A stretch of DNA of 64,000 nucleotides, taken from Mobula hypostoma. Its lineage: Eukaryota. The translations under genes were made by a program, and so were the position numbers. Positions 3,403 through 62,680 of this stretch are shown here, in pieces. Where the stretch lies: assembly GCF_963921235.1 (NCBI RefSeq), contig NC_086097.1, positions 8,308,001 to 8,372,000 on the forward strand, written 5' to 3'. Below the pieces are notes generated by a model, which ran no database searches, had not been told where the DNA came from, and worked only from the letters and a program-made list of their open reading frames with translations. Within the stretch, counting starts at the first letter, position 1. The number at the start of each line of letters is the position of its first letter.

Positions 3403-3532
3403 TATCCTGACGAAGGGTCTAGGCCCAAAACGTTGACTGTTCATTTCCACAGATGCTGTCTGACCTGCTGAGTTCCTCCAGCGTTTTGTGCGTGTTGCTT
3501 TGACCCCAGCATCTGCAGAATATTTTGTGTTA
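3403..3532 (+). mobile_element. Penelope-like terminal-repeat fragment with degenerate hammerhead motif
   Basis: CTGACGAAGGGTCTAGGCCCAAAACGTTGACTG (GAAA mutated to AAAA), then the conserved gatgctg..cctgctgagttcctccagc tail. Confidence 0.75.
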
Positions 3533-4374
3533 ATGTTGAATGAACTCTTTTTGCGTTGCCAGGTTCTCTTGTCATTTGTCCTAGTCTTTAATCTGAAGAT
3601 TGTCAAAATGTGACTTTAATTTGCCAGCTAAAATTGCTCGAAACTGACAGTAATGCAGTGAGTAAAGATGTGGTCACCTGCAACTAACTAATTGCTACCA
3701 GGGACTCCATACTGGGAATTTTGGCCTGGGTGGAGGCAAAATAGTTGTTTTATTTATCCTGCAACAATCCTTGCAGGATTTGTGGAGACAACATTAGTAG
3801 TAACTTTCCAATGCTTTGAGATGACTGTCATTAGTCCGTGTCCAAGAAGAGCGTAAGAGCATAGGATCCCTCATGCTCTTTCAACCTTGAATTTTGTTTC
3901 AGGTTTGACATTTGATCTTCTCTTATAAGCAAAGGTTTTATTAACTCATTGAATGTCATGGCTAATTTCATCATCAATATCTCTGCACACTGTGACAATC
4001 TTGCTCGTTTTGCATTCAAACAGACTTGGTGTTTTTTTGCTCTATTTGCGTTCTTTCTTGAAAAATGATGTTAGTTATGTTTATCGTTTCTTGTCAATAA
4101 CTCTGCCATGGATGTGAAGCTATGCCAAGCCCAGTTGTGAACTGAGGAGGGTTGGCATAGGGCTAACATCTCCATCCCGTAACAATGGCAACAGAAGCCT
4201 CAAACATGAAGGATACACCAAGCAGATGGACTACACCTGGTGAGAAGACTGACCCAGGACGGAGAACTCTGTTGAGCTGCTCCTGGCAGCCTCTGCTCCA
4301 GTAGGGTGGTGGGCTTATGTATATAAAGTGGATTTAATTTGGCTTTTTTTTTGCATTGATCAAGAGCACACCTT

Positions 4375-5065
4375 AAGGCAATGGCTCAAAAAGGTGGCAT
4401 CCATCATTAAGGATCCTCAAAATCCAAGGACGTGTTTTCTTCTCATTGCACCATGAGGAGCCTGAAGGCACACATGTAATATTTCAGGAACGGCTTCTTC
4501 CCCTCTGCCATCATATTTCTGAATGGCAATGAACCCATAAACACTACTACCTCAATATAACCAGAGGCAGTCAGCAAGCACCCACAACCTTTGCAGCACA
4601 ACCTCACAAGTATTACGTTTAACAACGTGGCATGCCTAACCTGGAGGGATGTGCTTGTTCTTTCCATAGATGGTGGTTTGCTGTAATACAACAAAGACAT
4701 CTTCAAAAGGCGATGTCTCAAAAAGACAGCATCATCATTAAGGACCCCCATGACCCAGGACGTGCCCTCTTCTCATTGCTGCCATCAAGGAAGAGCTACA
4801 GGAGCCTGAAGATACACACCCAATGTCTCAGGAACAGCTCCTTCCCTCCGACATCAGATTTCCAAATGGAAAACAAATCCATGTACACGACCTGATTATT
4901 TTTAGTCTCTTTTTGCACTACTTATTCAGTAAAATTTTTATAAATTTTTTATTGTAATTAGTAGTTTTTCATTATTATGTATTGCAATGTACTGTTGCCA
5001 TAAAACAACGAATTTCCTGACATATGCCAGTGATATTAAACCTGATTCTGATTCTGATTCTGAAT
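4375..5065 (+). mobile_element. Two adjacent Rex1/Babar-like LINE 3' fragments with (ATTCTG)n tail
   Basis: Translation IIKDPHDPGRALFSLLPS..YRSLK is the RT C-terminal region typical of this clade; tail ctgattctgattctg at ~5042-5063. Confidence 0.75.
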
Positions 5066-5444
5066 TTAGACTGGCATTTAATATCATGGATTTGTGACAA
5101 ATAAATCAGTCCTTTTCTTAATTACTTACTGCACATTTTGTTTAGGGCAGCAATTAAGATCCTTCATCTCCATTGGCCTTGGTCATCTTCTCTACTGTGC
5201 CACAGGTGTGTTTTAGGATCCTCATTTCTACCTCTATGGTGCAGCACCAAGTTGTCTTTTGTTTCTCACATTTCCTCCGTACTTTGGAGATTCAGAAGAG
5301 TGCTGTCATGATTTTGGAAATATTCCTCTCTTCTCATCATGTGCCCAATCCATCTCCAACAGTTATTCTATTTCAGTTCTATTTCACATTAGCAGATTCT
5401 CTTGTTTGATTGTACATCTGTACAGTCCATAAGAGACCTTAAGA

Positions 5445-7640
5445 CCATAAGAGCATAAGGCATAGGAGCAAAATTAGGCCATTTGGCCCATTGAGTCGGC
5501 TCCACCATTTCATCATGGCTGATCCATTTCTCCCTTAACCCCAATCTCCTGCTTTCTTCCCATAATATTTCAGACCCTGACTGACCATGAACCTATCAAT
5601 CTCTGCCTGTCGCATGGAATTTATCACCTTCTAGCTAAAGAAACTCCTCGTCATCTCTGTTCTAAATTAACGTCCCTCTATTTTGAGGCTATGCCCACTG
5701 ATCCAAGACAGTCCCAACAAATGAAACATCCTCTTCACCTATACTCATTCTTCTAAATTTCAGCAAGCACAGGCCCAAAACCTTCAGCTGCTGCTCATAA
5801 GTTCATCCCTTCATTCCTGGAATCATTCTTGTTGACCTCCTCTGAATCTTTCCAATGTCAGTACATCCTCCTTTAAATTAGGGGTCCCAAACTGCTCATA
5901 ACACTCCAAGTGAGACTTCACTAGTGCTATACACAGCCTCAGTATTACACCCTTGCTTTTATTTCCTCCTGAAATTAATGCTAACATTGCATTTGTCTTC
6001 CTCACCATGAATTCACTGGCAAATTAACCTTCAGGAATCCTGCATGAGAACTCCCAAATCCCTTTACACCTCAGATTTTTGAATTTTCTTCTCATTTAGA
6101 AAATATTCTATGCTTTTATTCCTTCTACCAAAATGCATTACCATGCACTTCTCAGCTGAGTATTCGGTCTGCCACCTATTTGCCCATTCTCCTAATCTGC
6201 CTGTCCTTCTGCAGTCTCTGCTTCCTCAACGCTACCTGCCTCTCCACCTAACTTCACATCACACACAAACTTGGCCACAATGCCACCTATTCCATCACCT
6301 AAATCATTGACATACTGAACATTGTGAAAACACAGACCCCTGTGGAGCCCCACTGGTCACTGCCAGCCAATCCAAAAAGGATCCCTTTATTCCCACTTTT
6401 TGCTTCCTACCAATTATCCAAAGTTATATCCATTCTAATATATTTCCTGTAATACCCTGGGCTCTTGTTTGGCATCCTCATGTGTGTGGCAACTTGTCAG
6501 AGGCCTTCTGAAAATTCATGTACACAATATTCACCACTTCTCCTTTGCCATGTATTACCAAGCACCCCAAAGCCAGATCCTTAACAATCGACTCCAATAT
6601 TTTCCCAACCACCGAGGTCAGGCTAACTGGCCCATAATTTCTCTTCTTCTGTCTCTCTCCCTCCTTGAAGAGTGGAGTGACATTTGCAATTTGCCAGTCT
6701 TCCGGAATCATGCCAGAATCTAGTGAATCCTGAAAGATCATCACTAATGCCTCCAGAATTTCTTCAGTTACCATTTTTAGAACCCTGAGCTGTAGTCCAT
6801 CATGTTTGTATAACTTATCTAACTTCAGACCTTATTCTGGCATCTTCCCCCTTCCTTTCCAGTCCTGAAGAAGGGTCTTGGCCCAAAATGGTGACTGTTT
6901 ATTAATTTCAATACATGCAGCCTAACCTGCTGAGTTCCTCCAGCATTTTGTTGCTTTACGTTTATATTTCATCTTCTCCCCCACCTTATGTTTTTTCTTT
7001 TAGTTGCCTTCTGTTGATTTTTAAAAGCTTCCCAATCTTCTAACTTTTCACTAATTTTCGCCCTATTATATGTGCTCTCTTTTGCTTTTATGTTGGCTTT
7101 GACTTCCCTTGTCAGCCACGGTTGCACCGTCCTGTCTTTAGAATTCTACTTCTTCTTTGGGATGTACCTATTCTGCATCTTCCAAATTGCTTCCAGAAAC
7201 TCCAGCCATTGCTGACCTGCCATCATCCCTGCTAGTGTCTGCTTCCAAATAACTTTGGAAAGCTCCTTTCTCCTGTCTCTGTAATTCTCCTTACTCCACT
7301 GTAATACTGATACATCTGACTTTAGCTTCTCTCTCTCAAACTGCAGGGTGAATTCTATCATTTCATGAGCACTGCCTCATAAGATTTCCATTACCTCAAG
7401 CTCCCTAATCATATCCAGTTCATTACACAACACCCAATCTAGAACTGCTGATCCCCTAGTGGGTTCAACCATAATCTGCTCTAAAACATGATCGCAGAGG
7501 CATTCCACAAATCCTCTCTCTTGGGATCTAGCATCAACTTGATTTTTCCAATCTATTGAAATCCCCCATGACTATCGTAACATTGCCTTTTTGACGAACT
7601 TTTTCTACCTCCCACTGGAACTTGGAGACTACATCCTGGC
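5445..7640 (-). mobile_element. Degenerate CR1/HER1-type LINE (ORF2 fragments), interrupted by a Penelope terminal-repeat piece at ~6830-6955
   Basis: ORFs 5823-6008, 6478-6774 (PEDWQIANVTPLFK..NYGPVSLTSVVGK) and 7146-7361 are CR1 ORF2 segments. Confidence 0.88.
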
Positions 7641-8659
7641 TAGAGTGAGATAGCAATAAACTTGAACTTGAATGGTAGCAATGAGTGTAGAGTGAGAGGC
7701 ATTTCACTGCATTGTTGGAATTCCATTCGATTACAAAATATTGTCATTTATTTGAATGGAAAATTACTTGATTTGGTGTCTATTTGTGGTTCAATAAACT
7801 TCACAGGGTAATTCTGAAATGCTGACTGCAAATCTTATCCTACAATGCCAAAAGGTTCAATTGATTAAAAATGCATAATAAGACATGACACATTACTCCA
7901 CAAGGATTCTGTTTTAATTCCTCTTAAAACTGTCAAGTGCATGCCTTCAGTATTAGACACGTGAGAGGCTTTCATTAACTGGCAACCTCTGATTGCTAAT
8001 TCACCCTGGCCTAGTTTCTTTCAATAATAAATGAGAAAGATCTACATAATCATCCATTTTAAAGCAGATTCATTCTGCTGTTGCAGAAGTGCATAGGAGA
8101 ATGAATTTTCTATGCTACATTACCTTCAAGTGAACCATTCAGAGATTATTGTGCTAGATTGGTTGATTTAAAAAAAACAGTTTTACTTGTTTTCTACAGA
8201 GCAATTGTGCGTTGCTTTAGAGATATGAAGGGGTTAGAACCCTTCACTTAATAATAGTACAGAGTTGAGAGGTGCAGCACTTTGCTTGAGTCCTGTCGCA
8301 ATAATTTAACGCATTCGTGGTATGCAACTCAAATTCAGAAGATAGATTAGGATTGCTATAATAGTCATTCACCCATCCACTCCAATTTGGATATCTTGTT
8401 GAACTGGCTTTGTGCTGATCTCATTCAACAGTGCTTTCACCATCGTTAATGTTCAATTTCAAGCCTGACTAAATATTTTTATGTGCTTAGTTTGTGAACA
8501 AGATTCTCTGTATGCAAATTTATAGGTATGAAAATCCTTGGCCCTATGTTCCACTTGAAAAGCAAAGACAAAGCAGAAATAAGCATCATTCAGGGGAAAT
8601 AGTTAGAGTGTTTAAATAACATATCGATGTTGCTATAATTCAAAATCAAGTGGTAAAGA

Positions 8660-8995
8660 TTGACTTTGACCTCTTCTCCTCACTTCCCCCACTGTCTCTC
8701 CTTTTTCCGTTTCACCCATAGTCCACTTTCCTCTCCTGTCGGACTCCTTCCTCTCTAGCCCTTTATCTTCCCCACTCACCTGGCTTCACTCGTTCACCTT
8801 CTAGCTATCCCCCTTCCCCTCCCCCCACCTTCTTATGCTGAGGTCTTGCCCTTTCCTTACCAGTTCTGAGGAAACTTCTCAGCCTGAAATGTCGATGGTT
8901 TGTTCATTTCCATAAATATTGCCTGACCTGCTGAGTTTCTCCAGCATTTTCTTAATGTTGCTCTGGAGTTCTAGTATCTACAGACTTGTTCATGT
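8660..8995 (+). mobile_element. Penelope-like 3' region (pyrimidine tract, decayed hammerhead, tail)
   Basis: C/T-rich tract similar to 62290-62620, then cagttctgaggaa..cctgaaatgtcga and gcctgacctgctgagtttctccagcatttt. Confidence 0.65.
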
Positions 8996-9154
8996 TTATG
9001 GCTAAAGACTGAGCTACCTTGACTCCTGCGATAGACCAGAAGGAGCAAAATTTGGAAGATTAGAGTGTGGCACATGTGGAACTACAGCTCAATTTAGCTT
9101 TTTACTCAGCAATGTATTGTCTATGTGTCCCAAGAATTTTCAGGACCTAGGGCT

Positions 9155-9380
9155 CCAGGGTAGTGTAGCGGTTAGCGTGACACTTTTACAGCTCGGGGAG
9201 TCAGAGTTTAGAGTTCAATTCTAATGTCCTTTATAATAAAGTTTGTACATTCTCCCTGTGGCTGTGTAGATTACCTCTGGGTGCTCTGACTTCCTCCCAC
9301 AGTCCAAAGATGTACCGTTAGTAGGTGAATTAGATTGTGAATAGGCTAGGGTTAAATGGATGGGTTGCTGGGCTGGAAGG
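9155..9380 (+). mobile_element. HE1-like V-SINE (other copies ~15150-15395 -, 19655-19915 -, 30575-30830 +, 43205-43410 -, 43530-43810 +, 51245-51530 +, 61825-62130 +)
   Basis: tRNA-like head (gtagtgtagcggttagc...gagttcaattc) plus V-domain-like core 'gggtgctctgacttcctcccacagtccaaagatg'. Confidence 0.75.
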
Positions 9381-9589
9381 AAACGAGGCTGTGGAATTCA
9401 TACTGCAAGTGAGGCATGTCTATTTATTAATGCTAATATGATGTTACATCTGGGTGAGCATTCCTTCCCGTTAATTTGATGATGTTGCTTGGTTTACCAT
9501 TCCTTCTCAGTTTCCAGCTGTTCTCCTGCTACCATTTATTCCTCTTCGTAGATGCTACCTGACCTGCTGAATTCCTTCAGCACAGGATA

Positions 9590-10025
9590 TAGAACATCAG
9601 AGCAGAATGAGGCTATTCTGCCCATTGAATCTGCCCCCTCTTTCCATCAAGGCTGATTTATTACCCCTCTCAACCTCATTCTCCATCCTTCTCCCTGTAA
9701 ACTTTGGTGCCCTTACTAATCAAAACACCTATCAACCTCCACTTTAAATTTACCGAGTGACTTGGCTTCCACCACTGTCTGTGGCATTGAATTCCACATC
9801 TTCACCACCCTCTGGCTAAAGAAATCCTTCTTCATCTCCGTTCTAAAGGGACATCCTTAATTCTGAGGCTGTACCTTCTAGTGCTGGACTCCTCCACTAT
9901 AGGAAACATCCTCTCCACATCCACTCTATCTAGGCCTTTCAATATTCAATAGATTTCAATGAGATCCCCACTTCATTCTTCTAAACTCCAGCAAGTAGAG
10001 TGCCTGAGCCATTAAACACTCCTCA
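9590..10025 (-). mobile_element. CR1/HER1-type LINE 3' fragment
   Basis: Reverse-strand homology to the RT C-terminus and 3' UTR at 17700-18150 and 46330-46760. Confidence 0.75.
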
Positions 10026-16422: not shown

Positions 16423-17035
16423 AATACACACAAAATGCTGGTGGAACGCAGCAGGCCAAACAGCATCCGTAGGAAGAAGCACAGTCGACGTTTCGGGCCA
16501 AGACCCTTCGTCAGGACCAACTAAAAGAAGAGATAGTAAGAGATTTGAAAGTGGGAGCGGGAGGGGGAGATCCAAAATGATAGGAGAAGATAGAGCTAAG
16601 AGCTGGAAAGTTGATTGGCAGAAGTGATATGAGTGGATCATGGGATGGGAGGCCTAGGGAGAAAGAAAGGGGGAGGGGAGCACCAGAGGAAGGTGAAGAG
16701 CAGGCAAGGAGTTATGGTGAGAGGGAGAGAGAGAGAAAAGAGAGAGAGTAAAAAAGGGAAAAAAAATAATAAATAAATAAAGGTTGGGGTTGAAGGCTAC
16801 CCAGATGGAATATAAGATGTTGTTCCACCAACCTGAGTGTGGCTTCATCTTGACAGTAGAGGAGGCCGTGGATAGACATATCAGAATGGGAATGGGACGT
16901 GGAATTAAAATGTGTGGCTACTGGGAGATCCTGCTTTCTCTGGCGGACAGAGCGTAGGTGCTCAGCGAAACGGTCTCCCAGTCTGCGTCGGGTCTCACCA
17001 ATATATAGAAGGCACACCGGGAGCACCGGACATAG
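16423..17035 (-). mobile_element. Penelope-like element 3' part: GIY-YIG endonuclease remnant plus terminal repeat
   Basis: ORF 16712-17026 LLYIGETRRRLGDRFAEHLRSV..PVATHFN..HSHSDM..EQHLIFHLGSLQP is the PLE GIY-YIG domain; followed by a pyrimidine tract, hammerhead motif and tail. Confidence 0.92.
16483..16518 (-). ncRNA. Minimal type I hammerhead ribozyme motif (intact core)
   Basis: Reverse complement GGTC-CTGACGA-A-GGGTCTTGGCCC-GAAA-CGTC-GACT: stem I GGUC/GACU, CUGANGA, stem II, GAAA, GUC triplet. Confidence 0.8.
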
Positions 17036-17327
17036 TATATAATAGGCAGGAATTTCTGTTTCAGCTTTATAAAACCCTAGTTAGGCCACAGCTGGAGTAC
17101 AGCATGCAGTTCTGGTCACTCCATTTTAGGAAGGATGTTGGAGAGGGTGCAGAAGACGCTTACCAGGATGCTGCCTGGATTAGAAGGCATGTGCTATAAC
17201 GAGAGGTTGGACAAACTAAGGATTGTTTTCTCTGGAGTGGTGGGGACTGAGTGGGACTCTGATGGAGGTTTATTACATTGTGAGAGACATGGACCGAGTC
17301 AGTCGACAGTTAGTATCTTTAGCCAAG

Positions 17328-17527
17328 GGCCGGCTGGTGGTGCAGTGGCATTAGCACTGGACTTCAATACAGATGGTCCTGAGTTTAAACCAGCACAGCA
17401 GCAGTATCTGCGCAGAAGAAAGGCCTGGCAATCTACTTCCGCATCTGGCCATGAAAACCCTATTGACCCTATGGTCCATGAGGTCACCAAGAGTCCAATT
17501 TGACTTAACAACCGAACAACAACAACA
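17328..17527 (+). mobile_element. tRNA-derived SINE with RTE/BovB-like 3' end and (CAA)n tail
   Basis: A box TGGTGCAGTGG, B-box-like GAGTTTAAACC; TSD ATCTTTAGCCAAG (17315-17327) / ATCTTTATCCAAG (17528-17540). Confidence 0.82.
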
Positions 17528-17695
17528 ATCTTTATCCAAGCTTTGGAAAGTCTAATACCAGGGAGCATGCATTTAAGATGAGAAGGGGTAATTTCAAAGA
17601 AGATGTGAGGGGCAAGTTTTTTCTTACACAGAGAGGTGGGTGTCTGGAATGTGCTGCCTGGGGTGGTGGTAGAGGCAAATACACTAGAGGCTTTT

Positions 17696-20139: not shown

Positions 20140-20436
20140 CAAACACAAGAAAATCTGCTGATGCTGGAAATCCAGAGCAACACACGTAAAATGCTGGGAG
20201 AACTCAGCAACACACATCAGAGTTGCTGGTGAACACAGCAGGCCAGGCAGCATCTCTAGGAAGAGGTTCACCAGCAATTTTGATGTGTGTAAACTGTTGA
20301 GGTTTTTGGTCAAGGCCTTTCATTCAGGCGTCTCACGTCCCTTTCCCACCCCCCCACCCTTCTCAGGTCACAGCCTGAAATATCAACTGTTTACTTTTTT
20401 CATTAGATCTGCTGAGTTCCTCCAGCATTTTGTGTG
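20140..20436. mobile_element. Penelope-derived inverted terminal-repeat insertion with a nested second inverted copy
   Basis: TSD AATGACTAATGTA at 20127-20139 and 20437-20449; inner inverted arms 20210-20234 / 20266-20290. Confidence 0.8.
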
Positions 20437-21214
20437 AATGACTAATGTAGTTGTTCACAGTTAAATTGACAGGGAGTTAACAATGATTTTATCTCCAGGG
20501 CACTAGGGCCTCAGGGATAGTAATCCAGTCTGGTGTCTCATGTTAAGCAACCTGACTGGGATTGAACATGTGGGAGTGATCGCAATGGGTTGTCACACAG
20601 CATTCTGAGTCAGAGACCAAGAACACGATTCAGTCCCAACAATCTCTAAATATTATGTGTGCTTTTACAAAGTTATCTTCAGATATGATAATGTTGGTCT
20701 AATTACAGCAAGAGCAGTAAAGGTTCTAAGAGCAACTGTTTCTGACTGTCATTCCTGTGGATGTAAGAATGATTCATATCATCACCTTAATGCATACTGC
20801 TAGAGTTTAAATCCATTTAGTGTCCTGCTGTATCTCTCGTAAGGAGCACTCGGCCTTTCCGACTTTCTCACAGACACATCAGTTTCACAATTCTCATGCT
20901 CTTGCTCATTGAACTTCATCTGTTATCATAGACGTGTGCTTGAAGGAGTGCTGTGTAAAACATTTTCTGTCAGGGGTATCTCGAACAGAAAGATGTACAG
21001 ATCAAAAAAAAAATGGACCAACTCATTTCTTATTTCTTCCTTTTTGCCATCAGAAGAAAAGAAAGAGACAGTCAATATTTGCTTGTCAACACCTCCCCAT
21101 CCTTGGGAAATACCACATGTATATTTTTAGGCATCCTTGTTGAAGATCGCTGTACATATAACTTCCCTGCAAGAGGACATGAAGAGATGATCTGATTAAA
21201 TCAGTCGGTATTAC

Positions 21215-24574: not shown

Positions 24575-25380
24575 AGTTCAAAGTTCAAAGTAAATGTTAT
24601 TATTCAACTACATAAATGTCACCATATACAACCCAGAGATTAATTTTTTTTGTGGGCATACTCAATAAATCTATAGAATAATAGCCATAATAGAATCAAT
24701 GAAAGACTGCAACACACATCAAAGTTGCTGGTGAATGCAGCAGGCCAGGCAGCATCTCTAGGAGGAGATACAGTCGACGTTTCGGGCCGAGACCCTTCGT
24801 CAGGACTAACATGACTGAATCAATGAAAGACTGGCCAAATTGGGAATTCAACCAGAGTGCGGAAGACAACAAACTATGCAATAAATGAATAAATAAACAA
24901 ACAAATAATAAATAAATAAACAAATAATAGATAATAAATAAGTAATAAATATCTAGATGATGAGATGAAGAGTCCCTGAAATTGAGTTCGTAGATTGTGG
25001 GAACATTTCAATGATGGGGCAAGTTAAGTTGTTTGAAGTTTTACTTATGGTTGAAGAGTCTGATGGTTGAGGGGTAGTTACTGTTCCTAAACCTGATGTT
25101 TTTGGTCACGAAGTTCCTGCACCTTCTTCTTCATGGCAACAGCGAGAAGAGAGAGCATGTTCAGTATGGTGGGAATTCCTGCTGATAGATGCTGCTTTTC
25201 TGTGAAAGTGTTTCACGTGGATGTGTTCAATTGTAGGGAGGGCTTTATCCATGATGGACAGGGCCATATCCTCAACATTTGTAGGATTTTCCATTCAAGG
25301 GCATCAGTGTTTCCATACCAGGATGTGATGCAGCCAGTCACTATACTCTCCACTATGCATCACTAGAAGTTTGTCAAAAG
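24575..25380 (-). mobile_element. Rex1/Babar-like LINE 3' fragment hosting a hammerhead-bearing insertion
   Basis: (TTCAAAG)n tail; ALPTIEHI..RKAASI..HALSS; homologous uninterrupted copy at 57415-58160. Confidence 0.75.
24710..24816 (-). mobile_element. 107-bp Penelope terminal-repeat insertion with intact hammerhead motif (24772-24807)
   Basis: 17-bp TSD GAATCAATGAAAGACTG at 24693-24709 and 24817-24833; reverse complement AGTC-CTGACGA-AGGGTCTCGGCCC-GAAA-CGTC-GACT. Confidence 0.88.
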
Positions 25381-28722: not shown

Positions 28723-29564
28723 CAAACTGGATTTCAAAAGCCATCATTAATTTCATTTCCCCAGGGTTATGGGTTATCTCTGGGTCCTCCAGCTTCCCAC
28801 AATTGATGGTCTCATTTTAAGGACTCTTTATATTATTATTTCATGCTCATTATTTGCTACTATTTATTTATATTTGCATTTGTACAGTTTGTTTCTTATT
28901 GATCCTGTTTACTCAAGACTGTATGTAGTGACATGTATGTACTCTGATAATAAATCTTGCTTTGAACTTTTTGAACTTTGAACAATCCAAAGACATAACA
29001 GGTAGGTTAACTGGTCATTGTAAATGGGAGAATCTGAGGAACAGAATTCTCCAGTGCCAAGGTGAATAATTTCTACATTGAAGCAACACTGATCTATACT
29101 AACTGTAATAATAGGTAATAGGATAGAGTTCTCCATCTCGGTGTGGAAGGTATTGTGATGAAGTTAATAGTGAAGCTAGTTATCAGTTGTAAAATGAACA
29201 GGTTGAAGGACAATGTACTACAGGTATGAAGTAGATAGAGGTACTTTGTCTGTGGAATGACAGGTGACATCAGAGTGAAAACTTAAAAGAACATTAGTGG
29301 ACATTAGGGTCACTCAGAATTACAATTTTTAATTCTCATCAGTGCCAATGGTAAACTGCCCTCTACCTCTTCAAAGAATCATTATCAAACAGAATTTAAT
29401 GTCATTCCACAGAAAAAGGATATTAGTTTAGGTTATTTAAATTTGGTCAAGGTGCTGATTTTTAAAGAATGAGAGGTTTGAGGATTAAACTCTATTGTTC
29501 AGAGCATACAAAACTAAAGGCATGTTTGCTAGTATTAGAGCAAAGAGCAATAGTGATCAGAGGA

Positions 29565-29718
29565 ACACACACAAAATGCTAGAGGAACTCAGCAATCAGT
29601 CCTGCTGAAGGGTTTCAGTCCTAGACGTTGACCGTTTATTGATTTCCATTGATGCTGCCTGGCCTGCATTTTGTGTGTACTGCTCTGGAGTTTCAGCATC
29701 GGGCAGAATCTCTCATGT
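29565..29718. mobile_element. Penelope-derived inverted terminal-repeat insertion with degenerate hammerhead
   Basis: TSD TAGTGATCAGAGGA (29551-29564) / TAGTGATCAAAGGA (29719-29732). Confidence 0.75.
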
Positions 29719-44115: not shown

Positions 44116-44264
44116 GTGAGTATCTTTTAATTCAGTTGCTGCTTACACTAACTTGTTAATCTGGGAGAGAAAAAAGAGATCAGGAGGGAATTAGAGCTGG
44201 CAAACCAAAGGAGCTGGCAAATATCCTGATGAAGGGTCTCAGCCCAAAATATCGACAGCTCTCA

Positions 44265-45180
44265 GAATCAAGTTTAATATCAGTGCATATGCCTTGAAAT
44301 TTGTTGCCTTTGCAGCAGTAGTACAATACAACGTATAATAATAGAATAAAAAACAAACCACAATTTACAGTGTATATACATATATGAGTTAAATTAAATT
44401 AGTGCAAAAATAATTTTTTTTTAAATTACTGAGGTAATGTTCATGGGTTTAATGTCCATTCAGAAATCAGAAGGCAGAGGGGAGGAAGCTGTTCCTGAAT
44501 CAATTAGTGTGGGTCTTCAGGCTCCTGTACCTCCTCCCTGATGGTAGCAATGAGAACAAGGCATGACCTGGGTGATGGACGTCCTTAATGATGAAAGCTG
44601 CATTTTTGAGGCATCACTGCTTGAAGAAGTTCTGGATACTATGGAGGTTCGTGCCCATGATAGAGCCAAGTAAGTTTACAACTCCCTGCAGCTTACTTCA
44701 ATCCTGTGCAGTAGCCACCAGCACCTCCACCCACCCCCATGCCAATACCAGATGGTACTGTAGCTAGTTAGACCGCTCTCGATGGTACAGTACATCTGTA
44801 GAAATTTGCGAGTGTCTTGGGTGCCAAACACCCAATTAAATACAGTCGCTGTCATGCCTTCTTTGTAGCTGCACCGATATGTTGGGTCCCAGAGATGTTG
44901 ACACCTAGGAACTTGAAATTCCTTGTTCTTTCCACTTCTTATTTGTCTATGAGGACTAGTGTGTGTTCCCTCATCTTACCCATTACGAAGTCCAACATCA
45001 CTTCTTTGGTCTTACTGACTTTGAGTGCAAGGTTGCTGCGACACCACTCAACTAGCTGATAAATCTCACTCCTGTATGCCCTGTCATTACCCTCTGAAAA
45101 TCTGCCAACAATAGTTGTATAGACATCAAATTTATAGATGGGATGTGAGCTGAGCCCAGCCACGCAGTCATTGGTGTAGG
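44265..45180 (-). mobile_element. Rex1/Babar-like LINE fragment
   Basis: AYRSEIYQLVEWCRSNLALKVSKTKEVMLDF; same 3' UTR as 42600-43110. Confidence 0.8.
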
Positions 45181-46335
45181 ACTGTTATTCCTTTCCAATA
45201 ATGTTTCATGACCTACTGAATTCCTCCAGCATTTTGTGTGTGTTACTGCCAAATGTCCCAGCAGTATGGAAACTAAGGGCCCAAATTTCAACCTGCCAGA
45301 GAAAGAGTTATGTACAACTGACCAATAAAAAATGGAGCAGTTGACGATACTTCTCTTCATATTGATCAAAGGGCTTACAGTCTGCTGCTGTCCATATTGA
45401 GTAGTGTCAAAGTTTCTGGTCCTGGAAATAAAGCGTGGAAAAATATTGTAACAATTAAGGGGGCTATATTAAGTAAACTACATAATTGCAAACTAACAAA
45501 GTTGTCATTTAATAGGCTTGATGCTTAATCCTCACTAGATCATAAAGTATACAGTACAGAAATAGACCCTGGAGTTCACAGAACCCACAGCCTCCATGAA
45601 ACACTAATTTAAATTCAAAGTTCAAAGTTCAATTTACATTTATTATCAAAGTATGTATATCATATACGACCTTGAGATTCGTCTCCCGACAAGCAGCCAC
45701 TGAACAGAGAAACCCAGTAAAACCCATTAAGAAAACACCATCAAACACCCAATGTGCAGAAGAAAAACAAATCATACAACCAATAAAAAAAAGCAAGTAA
45801 CGTTTAAAAATGAAGTTCACAAAAGTCAGTCCATAGCCACAAAGCCAGTTATCACTGCAGTTGATTCAGCAGCCCATTAGTTGAAGGCCATAGCCTTAGT
45901 TCAGTACAGAGATGAATAAACCTCATGATGGGCGAGCTGATCTGGCCCATCCCTCAGCTCTGGCACCAAACACCTTGACCATTTCAATCTGGCCCAGTGC
46001 TTATATCGTCCAAGCCTCAGGTCATTCCTCACTCTTGGACGCGGGCCCTGCTATGTCAATAAGTTCTCAGATCTGGGCCCATTGCCTGGATTTGCCCCAT
46101 ACAATTCAATTCAACCCAGCACATAAATCGATCAAACCTTTGGGTCTTTCCTTGTTTTCAGGACCAGGTCCACTGCCTCGAATCTGCATTGCCTCTGCTT
46201 GCCTCAGCTTGGTTCTGCACATCGAATCACCTCCAAGTCCATTCCAGCAATGGTCAGGTATTGGCTCATTCCCCATCTAAGCCCCACTGCCTCGATTCAG
46301 CAAATACATATGAGGCTTTTATGAAATGTTTAGGT

Positions 46336-47549: not shown

Positions 47550-47745
47550 ACAACAGGAATTCTGCAGATGCTGGAAATTCAAGCAACATACATCAAAGTT
47601 GCTGGTGTTCTAAACTTCTTCGGTGTAGGCATCACCGGAAGAGGTTCTGACGAAGGGTCTCGGCCTGAAACGTCGACTGCGCCTCTTCCTATAGATGCTG
47701 CTTGGCCTGCTGCGTTCACCAGCAACTTTGATGTATGTTGCTTGA
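47550..47745. mobile_element. Penelope-derived inverted terminal-repeat insertion with near-intact hammerhead (47643-47678, +)
   Basis: Perfect 29-bp inverted repeat 47579-47607 / 47717-47745; direct repeat TGAGTAATACAGTCA at 47535-47549 and 47743-47757. Confidence 0.88.
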
Positions 47746-50477: not shown

Positions 50478-50630
50478 CAAACACGAGGAAATCTGCAGAT
50501 GTTGGAATTTCAAGCAACATACATAAAAATTGCTGCTGAATGCAGCAGGCCAGGCAGCATCTATAGGAAGAGGTACAGTCGATGTTTCAGGCTAAGACCC
50601 TTCGTCAGGATTGACGAAGTGTGTCCTGAA
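50478..50630 (-). mobile_element. Penelope terminal-repeat insertion with hammerhead motif (50577-50612)
   Basis: Reverse complement AATC-CTGACGA-AGGGTCTTAGCCT-GAAA-CATC-GACT; GCTACCT direct repeat at 50471-50477 and 50631-50637. Confidence 0.78.
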
Positions 50631-50829
50631 GCTACCTTATGTGTTTGCTGTATAATATGTGCTATATGTGCCTTGTGCTGTGTATGACTGTTGGTACTGT
50701 GTTTTGTACCTTGGCACCAGAGTAACACTGTTTCGTTTGGCTTTATTCATAGGTACTCATGTATGGTTGAATGATAATTAAACTTAAACATGCATTTATT
50801 GTAGCTGTAGTCTCATTGTGAGAGCACGT

Positions 50830-55867: not shown

Positions 55868-57414
55868 CTATTTATGTATATGTTAAATGTCCCCAGTTAA
55901 ATTTTCCAGTAAGTAGTTTCTTCCTAATTTTCAAGTAAGTAGTTCCTTCCTACTTTTCATGCAACCCAACTTTAAATACGTCAGCTTGACCCCATTGGAG
56001 GGTCTTGACCTGAAACATTGACTGTTTATTAATTTCTATAGATGCAGCCTCAACTGCTGAGTTCTTCCACCATTTTGTGTGTGTAGTTTATACACATCAG
56101 CCAACCCTCCTGGAAGATCATTGCTCTAGAGCAGGGTTCCCAACCTTTTTTATGCTATGGATCAATACCAATAAGCTAGGGGTCCGGGAACCCAGTTTCT
56201 ACTGGGATAATTACCTACAGAAGCAATACCTTTTTTGACATCAAGTGCACAAGCATGGGGTCTGCTACAAATGTCCCTTTAATTTATTAACTATTTGATC
56301 ATGAGCATCCAACCAGCATGATTCCAGTTTGTTTCTCTGACAGCTCTCTGGAGTAACTCAGGTAGAGCAGGAATTTGACCAACCCCTGAAGATCATGTAT
56401 TCTGGTAATCGGGCTTGGCATCTTCTTTGCGATGATCTGAAAGATATTTATTTATTGCTTCTTTAAAGTATATATCTATCTAATCGTTTATATATACTGT
56501 ATATTGTTTGATAAAGATTCATGTTCATTTAAATAATTCATTACAACTTATGTATAAAAATACATAAATTGCATATATTGACATGCTACCACATGATATG
56601 TACATACCTCACTTAAAGTAAACACAAAGATAGACTCATATTTTGGACTCCCATGTCTTCCTTTTAATTGGATTAACATTTTTAAGTGACAAAACGTTAG
56701 AGCAGAGTTTACATTTTTTCTATTATGGTGTTCTTTATCTTATTGTGTATTTTGTGCATCAGATCCAGAGTAAAAATTATTTTTGTTTTCCTTTACACTG
56801 GAGTATTGGAAATGACATTAAACAATTGTGAAACTTGAATCTCGGATCTACTGGGGCTATTAACACTATGCAAGACAGTTTATCAAAATCAGCTTCAAAT
56901 TTCCAGAGCCATTGGATCATGTTTCGGTGAACATACTAATCTACGTTTGTAGACAGTATCCCATCACACTCCTGACTTTGCCATAGACCATAAGGCAGAA
57001 TTAGGTCTTTTGGCCCATCTAGTCTGCACCATCATTTATTCAGAGCTGATTTATTTGTCCTTTCAATCCCATTCTTCTGTCGTCTCCTGGTAACCCCTTT
57101 ATGGAAGTCGCTTTCTTGAACCTCAGCTTTGAATGGTATTTGCTTACCTTTATTGTTTGCCCAGTTTGTTATTTTTTCTGCCCATTGGGTGTTTGGCTGT
57201 CTTCTTTTTTAATGGCCTTTATTGGGTTTCTTTCTGTTGAGGCTGCCTATAAGGACACAAATCTCAATCTAGTATATAGTATGCATATTTTGACAATAAA
57301 TGTATTTTAAACTATAACCTTTGATGCCCTGATTAATCAAGAACCTATCAAACTTCACTTTAACCATAACCAATGATTTGGTCTCCACAGCCATCTGTGG
57401 CAATGATTCACCAA

Positions 57415-59620: not shown

Positions 59621-60129
59621 TTTTTATGTTGCGATTGTACATGGTTTCCTTTGCTTTGTGGCTTTAGTATTTCCACCTCTGCTCTATAACAATCTGTTTA
59701 CCACCAACATAAGGCACTACCTTCCAACATTTTAAGGTTTATGGCAATCTCTTTTACATATGCTCCCAAAATGTACTGATTAAGAAAAGATTGTCTTTGA
59801 ACTGTCTCTGTTGCCCATGTGCACATTCAAATGGACTATTCTGTTCCTCTGACAATCAGCACAGCAAACGTTATCGACATATAGTCCAAACACAAGATAA
59901 TTCTGTTTTCTTGTCTATTCCATACCAGTTGTTACTGGTTGAAAAAGCAGGGCTATGTCAGACCTCTGTAAAACATCACTCAGCACCCCTTCACTTGGCC
60001 CATCTTTCCTTTCTATAACCCAAAGTTGAAAGTTCAAAGTAAGTTTATTATCAAAGTACATATATAATCACCATATACAGCCCTGAGATTTGCTTTCTTG
60101 TGGAAACTCACAGTAAATACAAAGATAGA

Positions 60130-60950
60130 TAGGAAGGCTACGATAGGAAACTGTCACATGTTGTGAGCAGAATTATCTGCAGCTTAATGTGAAAAAGACT
60201 AAGGAGCTGGTGGTAGACCTGAGGAGAGCTAAGGTACCGGTGACCCCTGTTTCCATCCAGGGGGACAGTGTGAAAATGGTGGCGGATTACAAATAACTGG
60301 GGATATGAATTGACAATAAACTGGACTGGTCAAAGAACACTGAGGCTGTCTACAAGAAGGGTCAGAGCCGTCTCTATTTCCTGAGGAGACTGAGGTCCTT
60401 TAACATCTGCCAGACGATGCTGAGGATGTTCTACGAGTCTGTGGTGGCCAGTGCTATCATGTTTGCTGTTGTGTGCTGGGGCAGCTGGCTGAGGGTAGCA
60501 GACACCAACAGAATCGACAAACTCATTCGTAAGGCCAGTGATGTTGTGGGGATGGAACTGGACTCTCTGACAGTGGTGTCTGAAAAGAGGATGCTGTCTA
60601 AGTTGCATACCATCTTGGACAATGTCTCCCATCCACTACATAATGTATTGGTTGGGCACAAGAGTACATTCAGCCAGAGACTCATTCCACCGAGATGCAA
60701 CACAGAGCATCATAGGAAGTCATTCCTGCCTGTGGCCATCAAACTTTACAACTCCTCCCTTAGAGGGTCAGAGACCCTGAGCCAATAGGCTGGTCCTGGA
60801 CTTACTTCATAATTTACTGGCACAATTTACATATTACTATTTAACTATTTATGGTTCTATTACTATTTATTATTTATGGTGCAACTGTAATGAAAACCAA
60901 TTTCCCCCGGGATCAATAAAGTATGACTATGACTATGACTATGACTATGA
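60130..60950 (+). mobile_element. Young Rex1-type LINE 3' end with (GACTAT)n tail, nested in an older Rex fragment (60025-61440, -)
   Basis: ORF 60417-60788 MLRMFYESVVASAIMFAVVCWG..RKSFLPVAIKLYN; AATAAA followed by gactat repeats. Confidence 0.92.
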
Positions 60951-62189
60951 TTCAATTAAAAAAACTGCACAATGCACTGCAAAGACTGACAACCAATATG
61001 CAAAAAACAACACATTCTGCAAATACAAAAGGGAAAAACAAAACAAAATAATGATAATTAATAAATGTTACAAATATCGAGGACATGAGTTTATAGTTCT
61101 TGGAAGTGAGTCCATAGATTGTGAAATCATTTCCTTGCTGGGGTGAGTGAAGTTATCCCATCTGGTTCAAGAACCTGATGGTTGAGGGGTAATAATTGTT
61201 CCTGAAACTGTTGGTGGGCCCTCAGGTTCACATACCTTCTTGAAGGTAGCAGTGAGAAGACAGCAAAGCTCTGATCGTGAGGTCCTTGATGATGGATCCT
61301 GCTTTCCTGTGACAGCACTCAGTGCTGATATGCTCATTGGAGGTGATGATTTCACCTGTGATAGATTGGGCTGTATCCAAAATGTTTCAGAGGCTTTTCT
61401 GTTCTGGAGCATTTGTATGCTCTCCACTGTGTATTTATAGAAGGCCACCCAGCACAAAGTGGCTGTTTTCCCTTTAATTAGATGTCTCATTCTTTATGTT
61501 ACATGTCCTATACATGATAAGACCTTTTAAATATCCCACCCCCTACAGCAGATTCTTCTACGTTACCGGAAACTGAAGCGAAACAAGCATGTCACTATGA
61601 TAAGGTTCAGTTGCCTCATTTCCCAGTTGAAGGTACTCAGAACAATATGAAACCGGAACAGGCCATTCGGCCCACGTGCCTGCACCAAGCTCAGTGCCAG
61701 TTTAACCTATTTCACCTGTGCCTGTCCACTATTGATAGAGTAATCACATTCACTTCATTCTACTGTGTCCTAGTTGAAGACATTTACAATTAATGATCTT
61801 TGGTGCTGTAACTTTAACAAATAATAGTGTGGTGGTGTAATGGTTATAGTAACATACTGTAGAAGTAGTTGTAAGACTGAGTTTCTATTCCCACCACTGT
61901 CTTTAGTGAGTCTGTATATTCTTCTCATGAGCACGTGGATTTCCTCCGGGAGCTTTTGGTTTCTCCCACATTCCAAAGATGTATCGGTTAGGGTTAGTAA
62001 GTTGTGGGTATGCTACATTAGTGCTGTAAGCATGGCAATAGGAATGCCCCCAGTATACTTTGGTCTCTGATGGTCGTTGACGGAAAATAACGAGTTTCAT
62101 TGTCTGTTTCGATTTACATATGACAAATAATACAGAGAGGTTGTTCCAATGGCCAACCAATTTAACTCCAATCCCTGTTCCTTTTTCGA

Positions 62190-62680
62190 GATGTGAGTCC
62201 TTGGCCACAATGAGGCTACTGTCAGCAGGTAGCAGGAGCAACATCTCATATTCCATTTGAGAAGCATTAACCTGACAGCACAAACGTCAATTTCTCCAAC
62301 TTCTTGTAATTTCTCCTCCATCTCCCCTTCTGTTCTTTTCAATTCTCTGTACCATCTCCTCTCTTATCCCTTCTCTTCTCCTCACTTGCCTATCACCTTC
62401 CTCTGGTGCCCTTCCCCTCTTCCCCCTTCCTCTCATGTTCCACTCTTTTCCTATCGGATTCCTTCTTCTTCGGTCCCTTTATCTTTTCCACCTATCACCT
62501 CCCAGCTTCTCACTTCACCCCCACCCACCTTCCCCCTCACCTGGTCTCACCTATCACCTGCCAGCTTGTACACCTTCCCCTCCCTTCGTCTTCTTATTCT
62601 TGCTTCTCCTCCCATTGCTTTCCAGTTCTGATGAAGATTCTCAGCCTAAAGCATCGATTCTTTATTCCTCTCAGGTACCC
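62190..62680 (+). mobile_element. Older Penelope-like 3' fragment (endonuclease end, pyrimidine tract, decayed hammerhead)
   Basis: aatgaggctact..gagcaacatctcatattccatttg matches the 16800-16860 reverse complement; cagttctgatgaagattctcagcctaaagcatcga at ~62623-62657. Confidence 0.75.

What the first reader, a model, noticed from the sequence alone, without database searches (positions are those of the whole stretch)
3403..62660. High density of dispersed hammerhead-bearing mini-elements (retrozyme-like family)
Seen: the same hammerhead cassette occurs intact or near intact at 16483-16518(-), 24772-24807(-), 47643-47678(+) and 50577-50612(-). Decayed copies occur near 3407, 6865, 8865, 20295-20328, 29601, 44226, 56000 and 62628, mostly followed by a conserved tail (gatgctgcc..cctgctg..ccagca..tgtgtg). 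Most copies have no coding sequence and several have their own TSDs. At least two subfamilies differ in the tail (gagttcctccagcatttt versus cgttcaccagcaactttg). Decay is often at CpG (CGAAA>CAAAA/TGAAA). Inference: either a non-autonomous, Penelope-mobilised ribozyme retroelement comparable to metazoan retrozymes, or heavily 5'-truncated PLE insertions. At this density a genome would hold very many potential self-cleaving sites.
Basis: partly seen in the sequence, partly recalled or inferred. Interest (0 to 1): 0.8.

Follow-up and report, generated by a model that had tools for sequence, protein, structure and literature searches.

The report
Truncated Penelope elements carrying minimal hammerheads
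The scattered hammerhead-ribozyme cassettes are the 3' ends of a very abundant Penelope-like retrotransposon, mostly cut short at the 5' end, which is a known and ordinary pattern for this kind of element.

Summary
A hammerhead-like cassette matches 8 times in the window, against 0.13 expected by chance, and most copies carry a conserved tail. Some have target-site duplications. There are at least two tail subfamilies, and decay is mostly at CpG.

The cassettes are not a separate retrozyme family. Walking outward from genome copies leads to a 3.51-kb Penelope-like element (PLE). It has a reverse transcriptase, a GIY-YIG endonuclease, partial-tandem pseudo-LTRs, an inverted 5'-truncated upstream copy and a 30-40 bp tail extension. 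The minimal hammerhead lies about 95 nt from the 3' end.

The exact 33-nt cassette occurs 44,925 times in the 3.48-Gb genome, so the window's density is the genome norm. Longer copies have scattered 5' breakpoints. Short and long copies share haplotypes. Direct tandems are rare (120 pattern matches), whereas head-to-head inverted pairs are common (2,989 loci).

One feature is not explained by simple truncation. In a sample of 100 copies, 30 begin within 25 nt upstream of the hammerhead, and only 2 begin at the cleavage site.

No RNA data were usable. The kind is already described (Cervera & De la Peña 2014; Craig et al. 2021). Interest is low to moderate.

The parts
3404..3533 (+). Solo mini-copy of the second (GAGTTCCTCCAGC) tail subfamily. 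It has a decayed min-HHR at 3407-3437, a tail and a 30-40 bp tail extension. It is flanked by the 8-bp TSD TGTTGAAT (3396-3403 / 3534-3541). Its 5' end lies about 2 nt upstream of CUGA.
6831..6960 (+). Decayed copy of the second subfamily. The CUGA box is mutated (CTGAAGA, GAAA>AAAA). At least 34 nt of 3'UTR upstream are shared with the 8866 copy. The 5' end is not defined.
8767..8990 (+). Decayed older copy with HHR at 8866-8896, tail and tail extension. It shares positions -99 to +39 with the 62628 copy.
9540..9583 (+). Tail fragment (GATGCTACCTGACCTGCTG...) with no recognisable hammerhead upstream.
16423..17043 (-). 5'-truncated PLE copy of a third subfamily, covering positions 1855-2538 of the L046 reference piece at 75% identity. 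It includes the C-terminal GIY-YIG coding part (aa 163-242, 87.5% identical). Its HHR at 16482-16514 is intact, 32 of 33 identical to the young cassette. It has a probable degenerate TSD.
20140..20437 (.). Composite single insertion flanked by the 12-bp TSD ATGACTAATGTA. The left arm (-) joins a first-subfamily tail piece (from about +31/+36) to a second-subfamily tail. Then come a short inverted tail fragment (20266-20290, +) and a right arm (+) of the second subfamily with a decayed HHR (about 20365-20395). Tails face outward.
24709..24816 (-). Solo young mini-copy with an intact min-HHR (24773-24803) and the short tail end ...GATGTGTGTTGC. Six extra nt (agtcat) sit at the 5' junction. The 16-bp TSD lies at 24693-24708 / 24817-24832.
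29556..29712 (.). Old head-to-head pair. A (-) tail fragment (29573-29590 and onward) abuts a (+) copy with a decayed HHR (from 29598) and a tail.
44224..44256 (+). Isolated decayed hammerhead cassette (CTGATGAAGGGTCTCAGCCCAAAATATCGAC) with no recognisable tail behind it.
45178..45246 (+). Very short copy of the second subfamily that starts at about GACTGTT, at or within 2 nt of the predicted cleavage site, and runs to the tail.
47550..47743 (.). Young composite single insertion flanked by the 14-bp TSD GAGTAATACAGTCA. It has three parts: an inverted long-tail fragment (47550-47607, -), 36 nt that are the reverse complement of the PLE ORF-start region (47608-47643), and a forward mini-copy with an intact min-HHR (47647-47677) and a short tail.
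50478..50630 (-). Solo mini-copy with a near-intact HHR (50578-50608, GAAACATC) and the long tail end (...CCTCGTGTTTG). The 7-bp TSD AGGTAGC lies at 50471-50477 / 50631-50637.
55999..56084 (+). Decayed copy of the second subfamily. The CUGA box is lost or truncated at about +6. The tail reads GAGTTCTTCCACCATTTT.
61987..62690 (+). Old 5'-truncated PLE remnant. It has endonuclease-coding remains (tblastn aa 156-246, 28% identity; DNA match 62226-62303) followed by a decayed HHR at 62628-62658.

Best explanation
The cassettes are the 3'-terminal module of Penelope-like retrotransposons (PLEs) from at least three subfamilies. The module is a minimal hammerhead (min-HHR) followed by a conserved 'tail' that ends in a small stem-loop.

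Shown here:
- Copies end at one of two fixed 3' positions, about +92 to +96 or about +128 to +140 from the C of CUGA.
- Copies are truncated at variable 5' positions.
- Copies carry target-site duplications.
- Copies often come as head-to-head inverted pairs inside a single duplication.
- Full units are preceded by a direct partial copy (pseudo-LTR).

Inferred from the published biochemistry of an Anolis PLE:
- The endonuclease cuts both DNA strands.
- The RT starts internally at the tail stem-loop of the RNA. Every insertion therefore carries the hammerhead, which lies only about 65-95 nt upstream of the start site.
- Premature termination or template switching gives the short copies and the inverted pairs.

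About a third of all copies stop within 25 nt upstream of the hammerhead. I read these as by-products of the element's own RNA, from an RT stop or an RNA 5' end at the edge of helix I, not as a separate lineage.

A dispersed single min-HHR has no helix III and is not expected to self-cleave on its own.
For: Identity of the element:
- Window copies align to the last 100-690 nt of a long genomic copy. Endonuclease coding sequence lies upstream of the 16.5-kb copy.
- Stepwise extension of genome copies gives ever longer elements. 5' starts differ in 18 of 20, 10 of 12 and 10 of 12 loci.
- Two loci show a 3,510/3,511-bp unit preceded by a direct partial copy of 1,041 or 1,111 bp, at 97.3% and 99.5% identity.
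- The ORF has FYLLPKIHK...YIDDC and GLLYIGET...R..EH motifs. Pfam gives RVT_1 at E 2.8e-5 and GIY-YIG at E 4e-4. There are 386 homologues at E<=1e-10, many annotated with PF00078 plus PF01541.

Insertion anatomy:
- At the tandem junction the tail reads straight into ...TTGAATTTCCAGCATCTGCAGAATTCCTGTTGT. This is the 'long tail' seen on many copies.
- Inverted upstream copies occur in L003, L008, L031 and L047. Genome-wide there are 2,989 head-to-head loci, against 120 direct-tandem pattern matches.
- Among the first 100 cassette hits, 7 (-,+) pairs lie within 1 kb, with 0 (+,-) and 0 direct.
- Pairs are flanked by a single TSD in L064, L100, window 47536/47744 and window 20128/20438.

Short copies are not a separate lineage:
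- Every haplotype seen in 3 or more of 84 sampled copies occurs in both short and long copies.

The hammerhead is conserved:
- It is 32 of 33 identical in a subfamily that is otherwise 75% identical. Similarity between subfamilies begins at -2 to -7 from CUGA.

Literature (text read):
- PMC4209133: min-HHRs in PLE repeats, thousands per genome, mostly single, 'probably related to truncated PLEs'.
- PMC8557442 passages: 5' truncation, partial tandems, inverted upstream copy, 30-40 bp tail.
- PMC11167929 passages: internal RT initiation and cleavage/extension of both strands.
Against: - Simple random truncation does not predict the pile-up of 5' ends. In the sample of the first 100 tail hits, 30 start at -25 to 0, against 11 at +1 to +26 and 6 at -26 to -65 (binomial p 9e-8). 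Its cause is not shown.
- Both Pfam hits are below the curated cut-offs, and no solved structure matched the RT.
- In all 3 long copies examined (L046, L061, L062) the RT and endonuclease lie in different frames. I have therefore not shown an intact autonomous copy.
- Haplotype proportions differ between short and long copies (chi-square p 0.04).
- 5' ends of the 59 copies without an exact cassette were set by my reading of a printout, with BLAST as a guide, so they are good only to about 3 nt.
- Self-cleavage, transcription and the RT start site were not tested here.
Confidence: 0.88

Rival explanations
1. The short copies are a separate non-autonomous, retrozyme-like or SINE-like family. It would have its own master copies, be transcribed as a short RNA, and be mobilised in trans by PLE proteins.
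For: - There is a discrete size class. 27 of 63 exact cassettes and 30 of 100 tail-anchored copies begin within 25 nt upstream of CUGA.
- Solo minis have clean 10-15 bp TSDs.
- One haplotype (CG/ATA/T) is 21 short against 5 long.
- An initiator-like TCAGTT and a 3' splice-site-like ACTAAC...TCTTCCTTCAG sit directly upstream of helix I (the labels are recalled consensus motifs).
- A few micro-arrays exist, for example 62-bp units at C50:67866254 and 145-bp units at C2:12242910.
- A preprint argues that animal retrozymes derive from PLE terminal repeats (10.64898/2026.07.22.740005, abstract, Results and Discussion read).
Against: - No haplotype seen in 3 or more copies is private to short copies.
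- 5' ends form a continuum from +52 to beyond -300.
- Short copies are 93-97% identical to the long element's own 3' end.
- Direct tandems give 120 pattern matches against 44,925 cassettes, and there are none in the window.
- The one 341-350 bp internally deleted tandem found is a single locus (2 junction hits).
- The ribozyme is the minimal type, not the canonical type I of animal retrozymes (PMC7229834 passages).
Confidence: 0.1
2. The short copies are cDNAs of RNA that the hammerhead had already self-cleaved. Their 5' ends would then mark ribozyme activity in vivo.
For: A few copies begin at or within 2-3 nt of the predicted site (after GUC, between positions 27 and 28 counted from the C of CUGA). 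These are L139 and L178, the partner arm in L076, and window copies at 45178 and about 20270.
Against: Only 2 of 100 tail-anchored copies start at +27 to +31. That is 0.40 per nt, the same as the neighbouring +1 to +26 (0.42 per nt) and a third of the peak at -25 to 0 (1.15 per nt). The peak lies on the wrong side of the ribozyme. For the Anolis PLE, no reads began or ended at the cleavage site, and ribozyme mutants still inserted in vitro (PMC11167929 passages).
Confidence: 0.03
3. The copies were spread at the DNA level, by satellite expansion or segmental duplication of a hammerhead-bearing repeat, not by retrotransposition.
For: Micro-arrays of 39-145 bp units exist. Two pairs of sampled loci are duplicates with identical flanks: L034/L035 and L125/L165.
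Against: Copies are dispersed on all large contigs with equal strand counts (22,432 forward and 22,493 reverse). They have unrelated flanks and individual TSDs, fixed 3' ends and variable 5' ends.
Confidence: 0.01

Closest known systems
Canonical endonuclease-bearing Penelope-like elements (Penelope/Poseidon and Neptune clades), as described by Evgen'ev & Arkhipova and by Craig et al. 2021 (PMC8557442)
   Same: - A 3.5-kb unit with RT followed by a GIY-YIG endonuclease.
- Partial-tandem pseudo-LTRs.
- An inverted 5'-truncated copy directly upstream.
- A 30-40 bp tail extension and heavy 5' truncation.
- The hammerhead lies in the terminal repeat.
- A CX4CXXC motif (CKRNKCYTC) precedes the endonuclease. 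The paper's passages link this motif to Neptune.
   Different: - Clade membership was not tested by a tree.
- The copy number is very high for a vertebrate PLE: 44,925 exact cassettes and 67,467 exact tails.
- RT and endonuclease are in different frames in the 3 long copies read.
Minimal hammerhead ribozymes of PLEs (min-HHR; Cervera & De la Peña 2014, PMC4209133)
   Same: - CUGANGA and GAAA boxes.
- An extra unpaired A between positions 9 and 10.1.
- A G10.1 pair closing a 4-bp helix II.
- No helix III loop, with the palindromic ACGU.
- A 5-bp helix I (UAGUC/GACUG).
- Location in the PLE terminal repeat, thousands of mostly single copies, and some pairs on opposite strands.
   Different: - In 83 of the first 100 exact genome hits, position 11.1 is U, giving a G·U pair instead of G-C.
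- Head-to-head pairs here are often much closer than the roughly 100-700 bp reported: 0-100 nt between the two CUGA boxes at 2,989 loci.
- Activity was not tested.
Poseidon element PAc of Anolis carolinensis (PMC11167929)
   Same: - Fixed 3' ends at a small stem-loop downstream of the hammerhead fit internal RT initiation.
- Inverted pairs inside one TSD fit cleavage and extension of both strands.
- The lack of 5' ends at the cleavage site matches their RNA-seq result.
   Different: - In PAc the ORF starts inside the hammerhead. Here the first ATG lies about 165 nt downstream of CUGA, about 70 nt past the short tail end.
- No biochemistry was done here.
Animal non-LTR retrozymes (Cervera & de la Peña 2020, PMC7229834; Li, Clavereau & Pollet 2026 preprint)
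   Same: Non-coding, hammerhead-bearing, thought to depend on PLE enzymes. Rare micro-arrays of the cassette exist in this genome.
   Different: Retrozymes are head-to-tail arrays of 150-450 bp units with canonical type I hammerheads, expressed as circular RNA. Here the copies are dispersed singles or inverted pairs with the minimal motif, collinear with an autonomous element.

Membership tests
Penelope-like element (endonuclease-bearing) | Reverse transcriptase followed by a GIY-YIG endonuclease in one element | tested here: met
   RT motifs (LPKIHK, YIDDC) and GIY-YIG motifs (YIGET..R..EH) are present in L046. Pfam gives RVT_1 at E 2.8e-5 and GIY-YIG at E 4e-4, both below the curated cut-offs. 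Homologues carry PF00078 plus PF01541. The two domains lie in different frames in L046, L061 and L062.
Penelope-like element (endonuclease-bearing) | Pseudo-LTR formed by a direct, 5'-truncated upstream copy | tested here: met
   In L061, 5021-6056 repeats 8531-9568. In L062, 5056-6166 repeats 8567-9676. The unit is 3,510/3,511 bp.
Penelope-like element (endonuclease-bearing) | Inverted 5'-truncated copy adjacent upstream | tested here: met
   Seen in L003, L008, L031 and L047. Genome-wide, 2,989 close head-to-head loci. In the window: 47550-47743, 20140-20437 and 29556-29712.
Penelope-like element (endonuclease-bearing) | 30-40 bp tail extension present on some insertions | tested here: met
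   There are two classes of 3' end, +84 to +103 and +122 to +142 from CUGA, among 63 copies. The extension equals the sequence that follows the tail at the tandem junction.
Penelope-like element (endonuclease-bearing) | RT groups with PLE/telomerase RTs in a phylogeny | not tested
   No tree was built. No PDB sequence match to the RT.
Minimal hammerhead of PLEs (min-HHR) | Catalytic boxes CUGANGA and GAAA, an unpaired nucleotide after A9, a G10.1-C11.1 pair, and helix II of 4 bp or more | tested here: met
   Read directly from CCTGACGA-A-GGGTCTCGGCCC-GAAA at 24773-24803 and 16482-16514. Position 11.1 is U in 47647, 50578 and 83 of the first 100 genome hits.
Minimal hammerhead of PLEs (min-HHR) | No helix III loop, palindromic 15.2-16.2, short helix I | tested here: met
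   GAAA-CG-UC gives ACGU with no loop. Helix I is UAGUC/GACUG, and it is recovered in the minimum-energy fold.
Minimal hammerhead of PLEs (min-HHR) | Self-cleavage, as a dimer or with protein help | not testable with these tools
   No assay was possible. No RNA run is on record. The laid runs are contigs and show no molecule ends.
Canonical type I hammerhead (Rfam models) | Match to an Rfam hammerhead covariance model | tested here: not met
   0 matches at gathering score in the window. No hammerhead family at E up to 10 on 24680-24850.
Animal non-LTR retrozyme | Head-to-tail tandem repeats of 150-450 bp units, each with a hammerhead | tested here: not met
   None among the 14 window pieces. 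Genome-wide, 120 pattern matches with 90-190 bp spacing against 44,925 cassettes. 0 direct pairs within 1 kb among the first 100 hits.
Animal non-LTR retrozyme | A lineage of its own, not collinear fragments of an autonomous element | tested here: not met
   The copies are collinear with the PLE 3' end and share haplotypes with long copies.
Animal non-LTR retrozyme | Expression as circular RNA | not testable with these tools
   No RNA holder is listed, and only contigs are available.

The most novel reading that the evidence does not exclude
The pile-up of 5' ends at the first nucleotides of helix I (mode about -5/-6) may mark a real, discrete RNA species or a programmed RT stop. One version: a short RNA begins at the hammerhead's 5' edge. 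It would be made by the initiator-like TCAGTT, or by processing at the splice-acceptor-like ...TCTTCCTTCAG just upstream, and copied from the nearest internal RT start site. In that case the 100-165 nt hammerhead-plus-tail module is the minimal self-sufficient retrotransposition unit of this PLE. It would be the direct precursor of animal retrozymes, and the hammerhead fold would act as a 5' boundary element rather than as a cutter.
Probability: 0.25. Interest if true: 0.55.

Novelty: new member of a known kind. Interest (0 to 1): 0.28.

Why it matters
For annotation, these cassettes should be masked as PLE 3' ends. They should not be reported as ribozyme genes or as a new retrozyme family.

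For PLE biology, this genome offers a very large natural sample: tens of thousands of young insertions with two fixed 3' ends, one-TSD inverted pairs and template-switch chimeras. These fit the recently proposed internal RT initiation and priming on both strands.

The sample also gives two testable facts. Cleaved RNA is not the usual template. Reverse transcription very often ends at the hammerhead's 5' edge.

Tried and rejected
- **Rfam.** No hammerhead model matched, at gathering score or at E up to 10.
- **RNA evidence.** No RNA holder was listed for the pLTR-ORF junction stretch. The four runs laid were contigs of unknown library type. They showed no places where molecules begin or end and no usable back-joint, so nothing can be said about transcripts, circles or cleavage.
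- **Window ORFs.** ORFs at 17299-18579(-) and 46592-47314(-) were tested as possible PLE coding parts. There was no Pfam hit and no tblastn match to the PLE proteins.
- **False full length.** A first apparent full length of 2.54 kb (three copies with nearly the same 5' end) was wrong. The ORF ran on upstream.
- **Internally deleted tandem.** A 341-350 bp unit at C1:1876684-1877192 looked like a retrozyme candidate, but its junction occurs only at that locus.
- **PDB.** Sequence searches gave nothing for the RT and only a chance-level hit for the endonuclease frame.
- **Dimer folding.** It only showed the trivial hairpin-swap duplex and says nothing about an active dimer.
- **Second subfamily.** A replicate of the breakpoint sample (24,280 exact tails) could not be made.
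- **Earlier notes of this scan.** Nothing found for this genome.
- **Covariation.** Helix II covariation between subfamilies was not pursued, because the older window copies are too decayed to read their original pairs.

Full report
**Observation.** The window looks like vertebrate DNA (CpG observed/expected 0.29). It lies in a 3.48-Gb assembly of 200 contigs. The cassette CTGANGA-N13-GAAACRTCGAC matches 8 times with up to 3 mismatches, against 0.13 in shuffles. BLAST with one copy recovers the decayed ones. Both tail motifs are far above chance: 8 against 0.01, and 10 against 0.16. Target-site duplications of 7-16 bp flank five of the insertions. No Rfam hammerhead model matches, even at E up to 10.

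**What the copies belong to.**
- A search of the window's own genome with the 131-nt copy at 24700-24830 gave at least 1,569 first-look candidates.
- Eight of the first ten loci extend upstream of the window copy's 5' end into shared sequence, to different lengths. Two of them are inverted pairs.
- Repeating the walk three times gave more shared sequence each time, with scattered 5' starts.
- A first apparent full length of 2.54 kb was wrong.
- Two loci finally showed the whole structure: a 3,510/3,511-bp unit preceded by a direct partial copy of 1,041 or 1,111 bp.
- The unit encodes a reverse transcriptase and, after a CKRNKCYTC motif, a GIY-YIG endonuclease. Pfam hits are weak (E 2.8e-5 and 4e-4, both under the curated cut-offs).
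- There are 386 homologues at E<=1e-10. Many carry RVT_1 plus GIY-YIG. They include uncharacterised proteins of a cartilaginous fish (72% identity), cnidarians, echinoderms, ticks and amphioxus.
- The hammerhead lies in the 3' untranslated region, about 95 nt from the short 3' end.
- At the tandem junction the tail continues into ...TTGAATTTCCAGCATCTGCAGAATTCCTGTTGT, and the first ATG follows about 70 nt after the short end.

This is the anatomy of a canonical Penelope-like element as described in papers I read. Those papers report terminal repeats that carry minimal hammerheads, mostly single genomic motifs 'probably related to truncated PLEs', and some pairs on opposite strands (PMC4209133, text). 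They also report heavy 5' truncation, partial tandems, an inverted truncated copy upstream and a 30-40 bp tail (PMC8557442, passages).

**The window.** All 14 pieces are PLE 3' ends or fragments of them, from at least three subfamilies.
- Only two keep coding remains: 16423-17043 and 61987-62690.
- Three are composite inverted insertions. Two of them sit inside a single duplication (47550-47743 and 20140-20437).
- The first of these contains 36 nt copied from the ORF-start region in reverse.
- The second joins the tails of two subfamilies.
- Both look like template switching during one insertion event.
- Similarity between subfamilies starts abruptly at -2 to -7 from CUGA. The cassette is 32 of 33 identical in a copy that is otherwise 75% identical. 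The hammerhead and tail are therefore the conserved core of the 3' end.

**Numbers in the genome.**
- The exact 33-mer cassette occurs 44,925 times (22,432 forward and 22,493 reverse; reversed control 0).
- The exact 35-mer tail occurs 67,467 times.
- The tail of the second subfamily occurs 24,280 times.
- The window's two exact cassettes are within expectation (0.83 expected).
- Direct repeats of the cassette start at 90-190 bp spacing give only 120 matches. Many come from a handful of micro-arrays with 39-145 bp units.
- Head-to-head pairs with 0-100 nt between the two CUGA boxes occupy 2,989 loci.
- Among the first 100 cassette hits there are 7 (-,+) pairs within 1 kb, and no (+,-) or direct pair.

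**Breakpoints.** I took the first 63 exact cassettes along contig C1 (the 64th in that stretch was not fetched).
- 27 begin 0-25 nt upstream of the C of CUGA.
- 3 begin at -40 to -48.
- 6 begin at -101 to -252.
- 27 run beyond about -285.

To avoid conditioning on an intact cassette, I also took the first 100 exact tail hits.

| 5' start relative to the C of CUGA | Copies (of 100) | Density per nt |
|---|---|---|
| Beyond -65, or internally deleted | 45 | – |
| -26 to -65 | 6 | 0.15 |
| -25 to 0 | 30 | 1.15 |
| +1 to +26 | 11 | 0.42 |
| +27 to +31 (cleavage site) | 2 | 0.40 |
| +32 to +52 (two are duplicates of one locus) | 5 | 0.24 |
| Not fetched | 1 | – |

- The binomial p-value for the excess at -25 to 0 lies between 9e-8 and 3e-5, depending on the comparison.
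- The ends of the 59 copies without an exact cassette were set by my reading of the printed sequences and are good to about 3 nt.
- The mode in solo copies is -2 to -6, which is the start of the UAGUC strand of helix I.
- There is no excess at the cleavage site.
- Eight solo minis have clear 10-15 bp duplications. The pairs L064 and L100 each sit inside one duplication.
- Every haplotype seen in three or more of 84 copies occurs in both short and long copies. Proportions differ (chi-square p 0.04).

**How it most likely works.** *Shown:* fixed 3' ends of two kinds, variable 5' ends, duplications, one-event inverted pairs and partial tandems. *Inferred from the Anolis Poseidon study* (PMC11167929, passages): the endonuclease cuts both strands, and the RT starts inside the RNA at a stem-loop downstream of the hammerhead. 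Both DNA ends can prime, which explains tails-outward pairs. The two 3' ends would be two start sites. Because the hammerhead is only 65-95 nt from the start site, almost every insertion carries it.

The pile-up at the hammerhead's 5' edge could be an RT stop at the folded or protein-bound ribozyme. It could instead be run-off at an RNA 5' end. An initiator-like TCAGTT and a branch-point/polypyrimidine/CAG motif lie just upstream. Those labels are recalled consensus motifs, not tested here. I cannot tell these apart.

The motif has no helix III. The paper that defined the min-HHR (PMC4209133) found no detectable cleavage for a single motif from Schistosoma mansoni and only weak cleavage for dimeric and trimeric constructs. 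In the Anolis study (PMC11167929) the ribozyme cleaved only when the element's protein was added. Dispersed singles, and pairs on opposite strands, are therefore unlikely to cut the transcripts that contain them.

**Comparison and novelty.** The element passes the structural tests for an endonuclease-bearing PLE and for the minimal PLE hammerhead. It fails those for a canonical type I hammerhead and for an animal retrozyme. RT phylogeny, activity and circular RNA were not tested.

The kind is in print, including the proposed descent of retrozymes from PLE terminal repeats (PMC7229834 passages; preprint 10.64898/2026.07.22.740005, abstract, Results and Discussion). I searched for 'Penelope-like' with 'hammerhead' and with 'shark'. 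In the texts I read I found no statement about a 5'-end hot spot at the hammerhead edge. I did not see their supplements, and repeat libraries could not be consulted, so this family may already be catalogued.

**Verdict.** This is an ordinary, very abundant PLE family seen through its truncated 3' ends. The one quantitative feature worth a follow-up is the hot spot of 5' ends at the hammerhead's 5' edge.

Noticed in passing
L046:6668-9092; L061:6041-9168; L062 (reverse complement) 6153-9278: In all three long PLE copies read, the GIY-YIG endonuclease frame differs from the RT frame and overlaps its end by about 195-320 nt. This could be a family-wide frameshift, an unrecognised short intron or shared decay. 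No copy with one continuous RT-endonuclease frame was seen.
   Followed up: partly
G000:C67:45319292-45321278; C50:67866254-67866702; C5:27282262-27282581; C59:36183591-36183767; C2:12242910-12243214: Small head-to-tail arrays built from the hammerhead region, with units of about 45, 62, 61, 54 and 145 bp. The 61-62 bp units contain a complete minimal hammerhead with both helix I strands.
   Followed up: partly
G000:C1:1876684-1877192 (L148, L149): A tandem of an internally deleted PLE derivative with 341-350 bp units. It keeps the last 65 nt of the 3'UTR, the hammerhead, the tail, the 5'UTR and the first 120 nt or so of the ORF. Its deletion junction occurs only at this locus (2 hits).
   Followed up: yes
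L061:5891-5955 and equivalent positions in copies L002-L009: Directly upstream of helix I lies ...CTTACT(A/C)ACTCTTCCTTCAG|TTAGTC. It resembles a branch point, polypyrimidine tract and 3' splice site, and it also contains an initiator-like TCAGTT. A published Drosophila virilis PLE has an intron ending at the 5' end of helix I (PMC4209133).
   Followed up: no
window 35439-37254 (-): Two adjacent open frames with an AP-endonuclease domain (Exo_endo_phos_2, E 2.7e-8) and the start of an RT (RVT_1, E 2.3e-4). This is a LINE-type retrotransposon remnant unrelated to the PLE.
   Followed up: partly
window 53690-54196 (-): Open frame with a Tc3-type transposase helix-turn-helix domain (PF01498, E 2.8e-11). 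This is a Tc1/mariner-like DNA transposon remnant.
   Followed up: no
window 60309-60788 (+): Open frame matching PF09004 (ALKBH8_N, E 1.4e-13) over 41 residues.
   Followed up: no
window 17299-18579 (-), 46592-47314 (-), 52618-53085 (+): Open frames of 155-265 aa with no Pfam match at E 0.01 and no similarity to the PLE proteins. Their origin is unknown.
   Followed up: partly
L034 / L035 (G000:C96:15469642 and C96:15261425); L125 / L165 (C1:170433 and C1:2960804): Pairs of PLE copies with identical or near-identical flanks at distant places on one contig. These are segmental duplicates or copies carried inside another repeat, and they slightly inflate copy counts.
   Followed up: no
window 20140-20270 (-): One arm of a single insertion joins a first-subfamily tail piece directly to a second-subfamily tail at ...GTGTGTTGCT|GAGTTC. 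It looks as if the RT jumped from one subfamily's RNA to the 3' start site of another's.
   Followed up: partly
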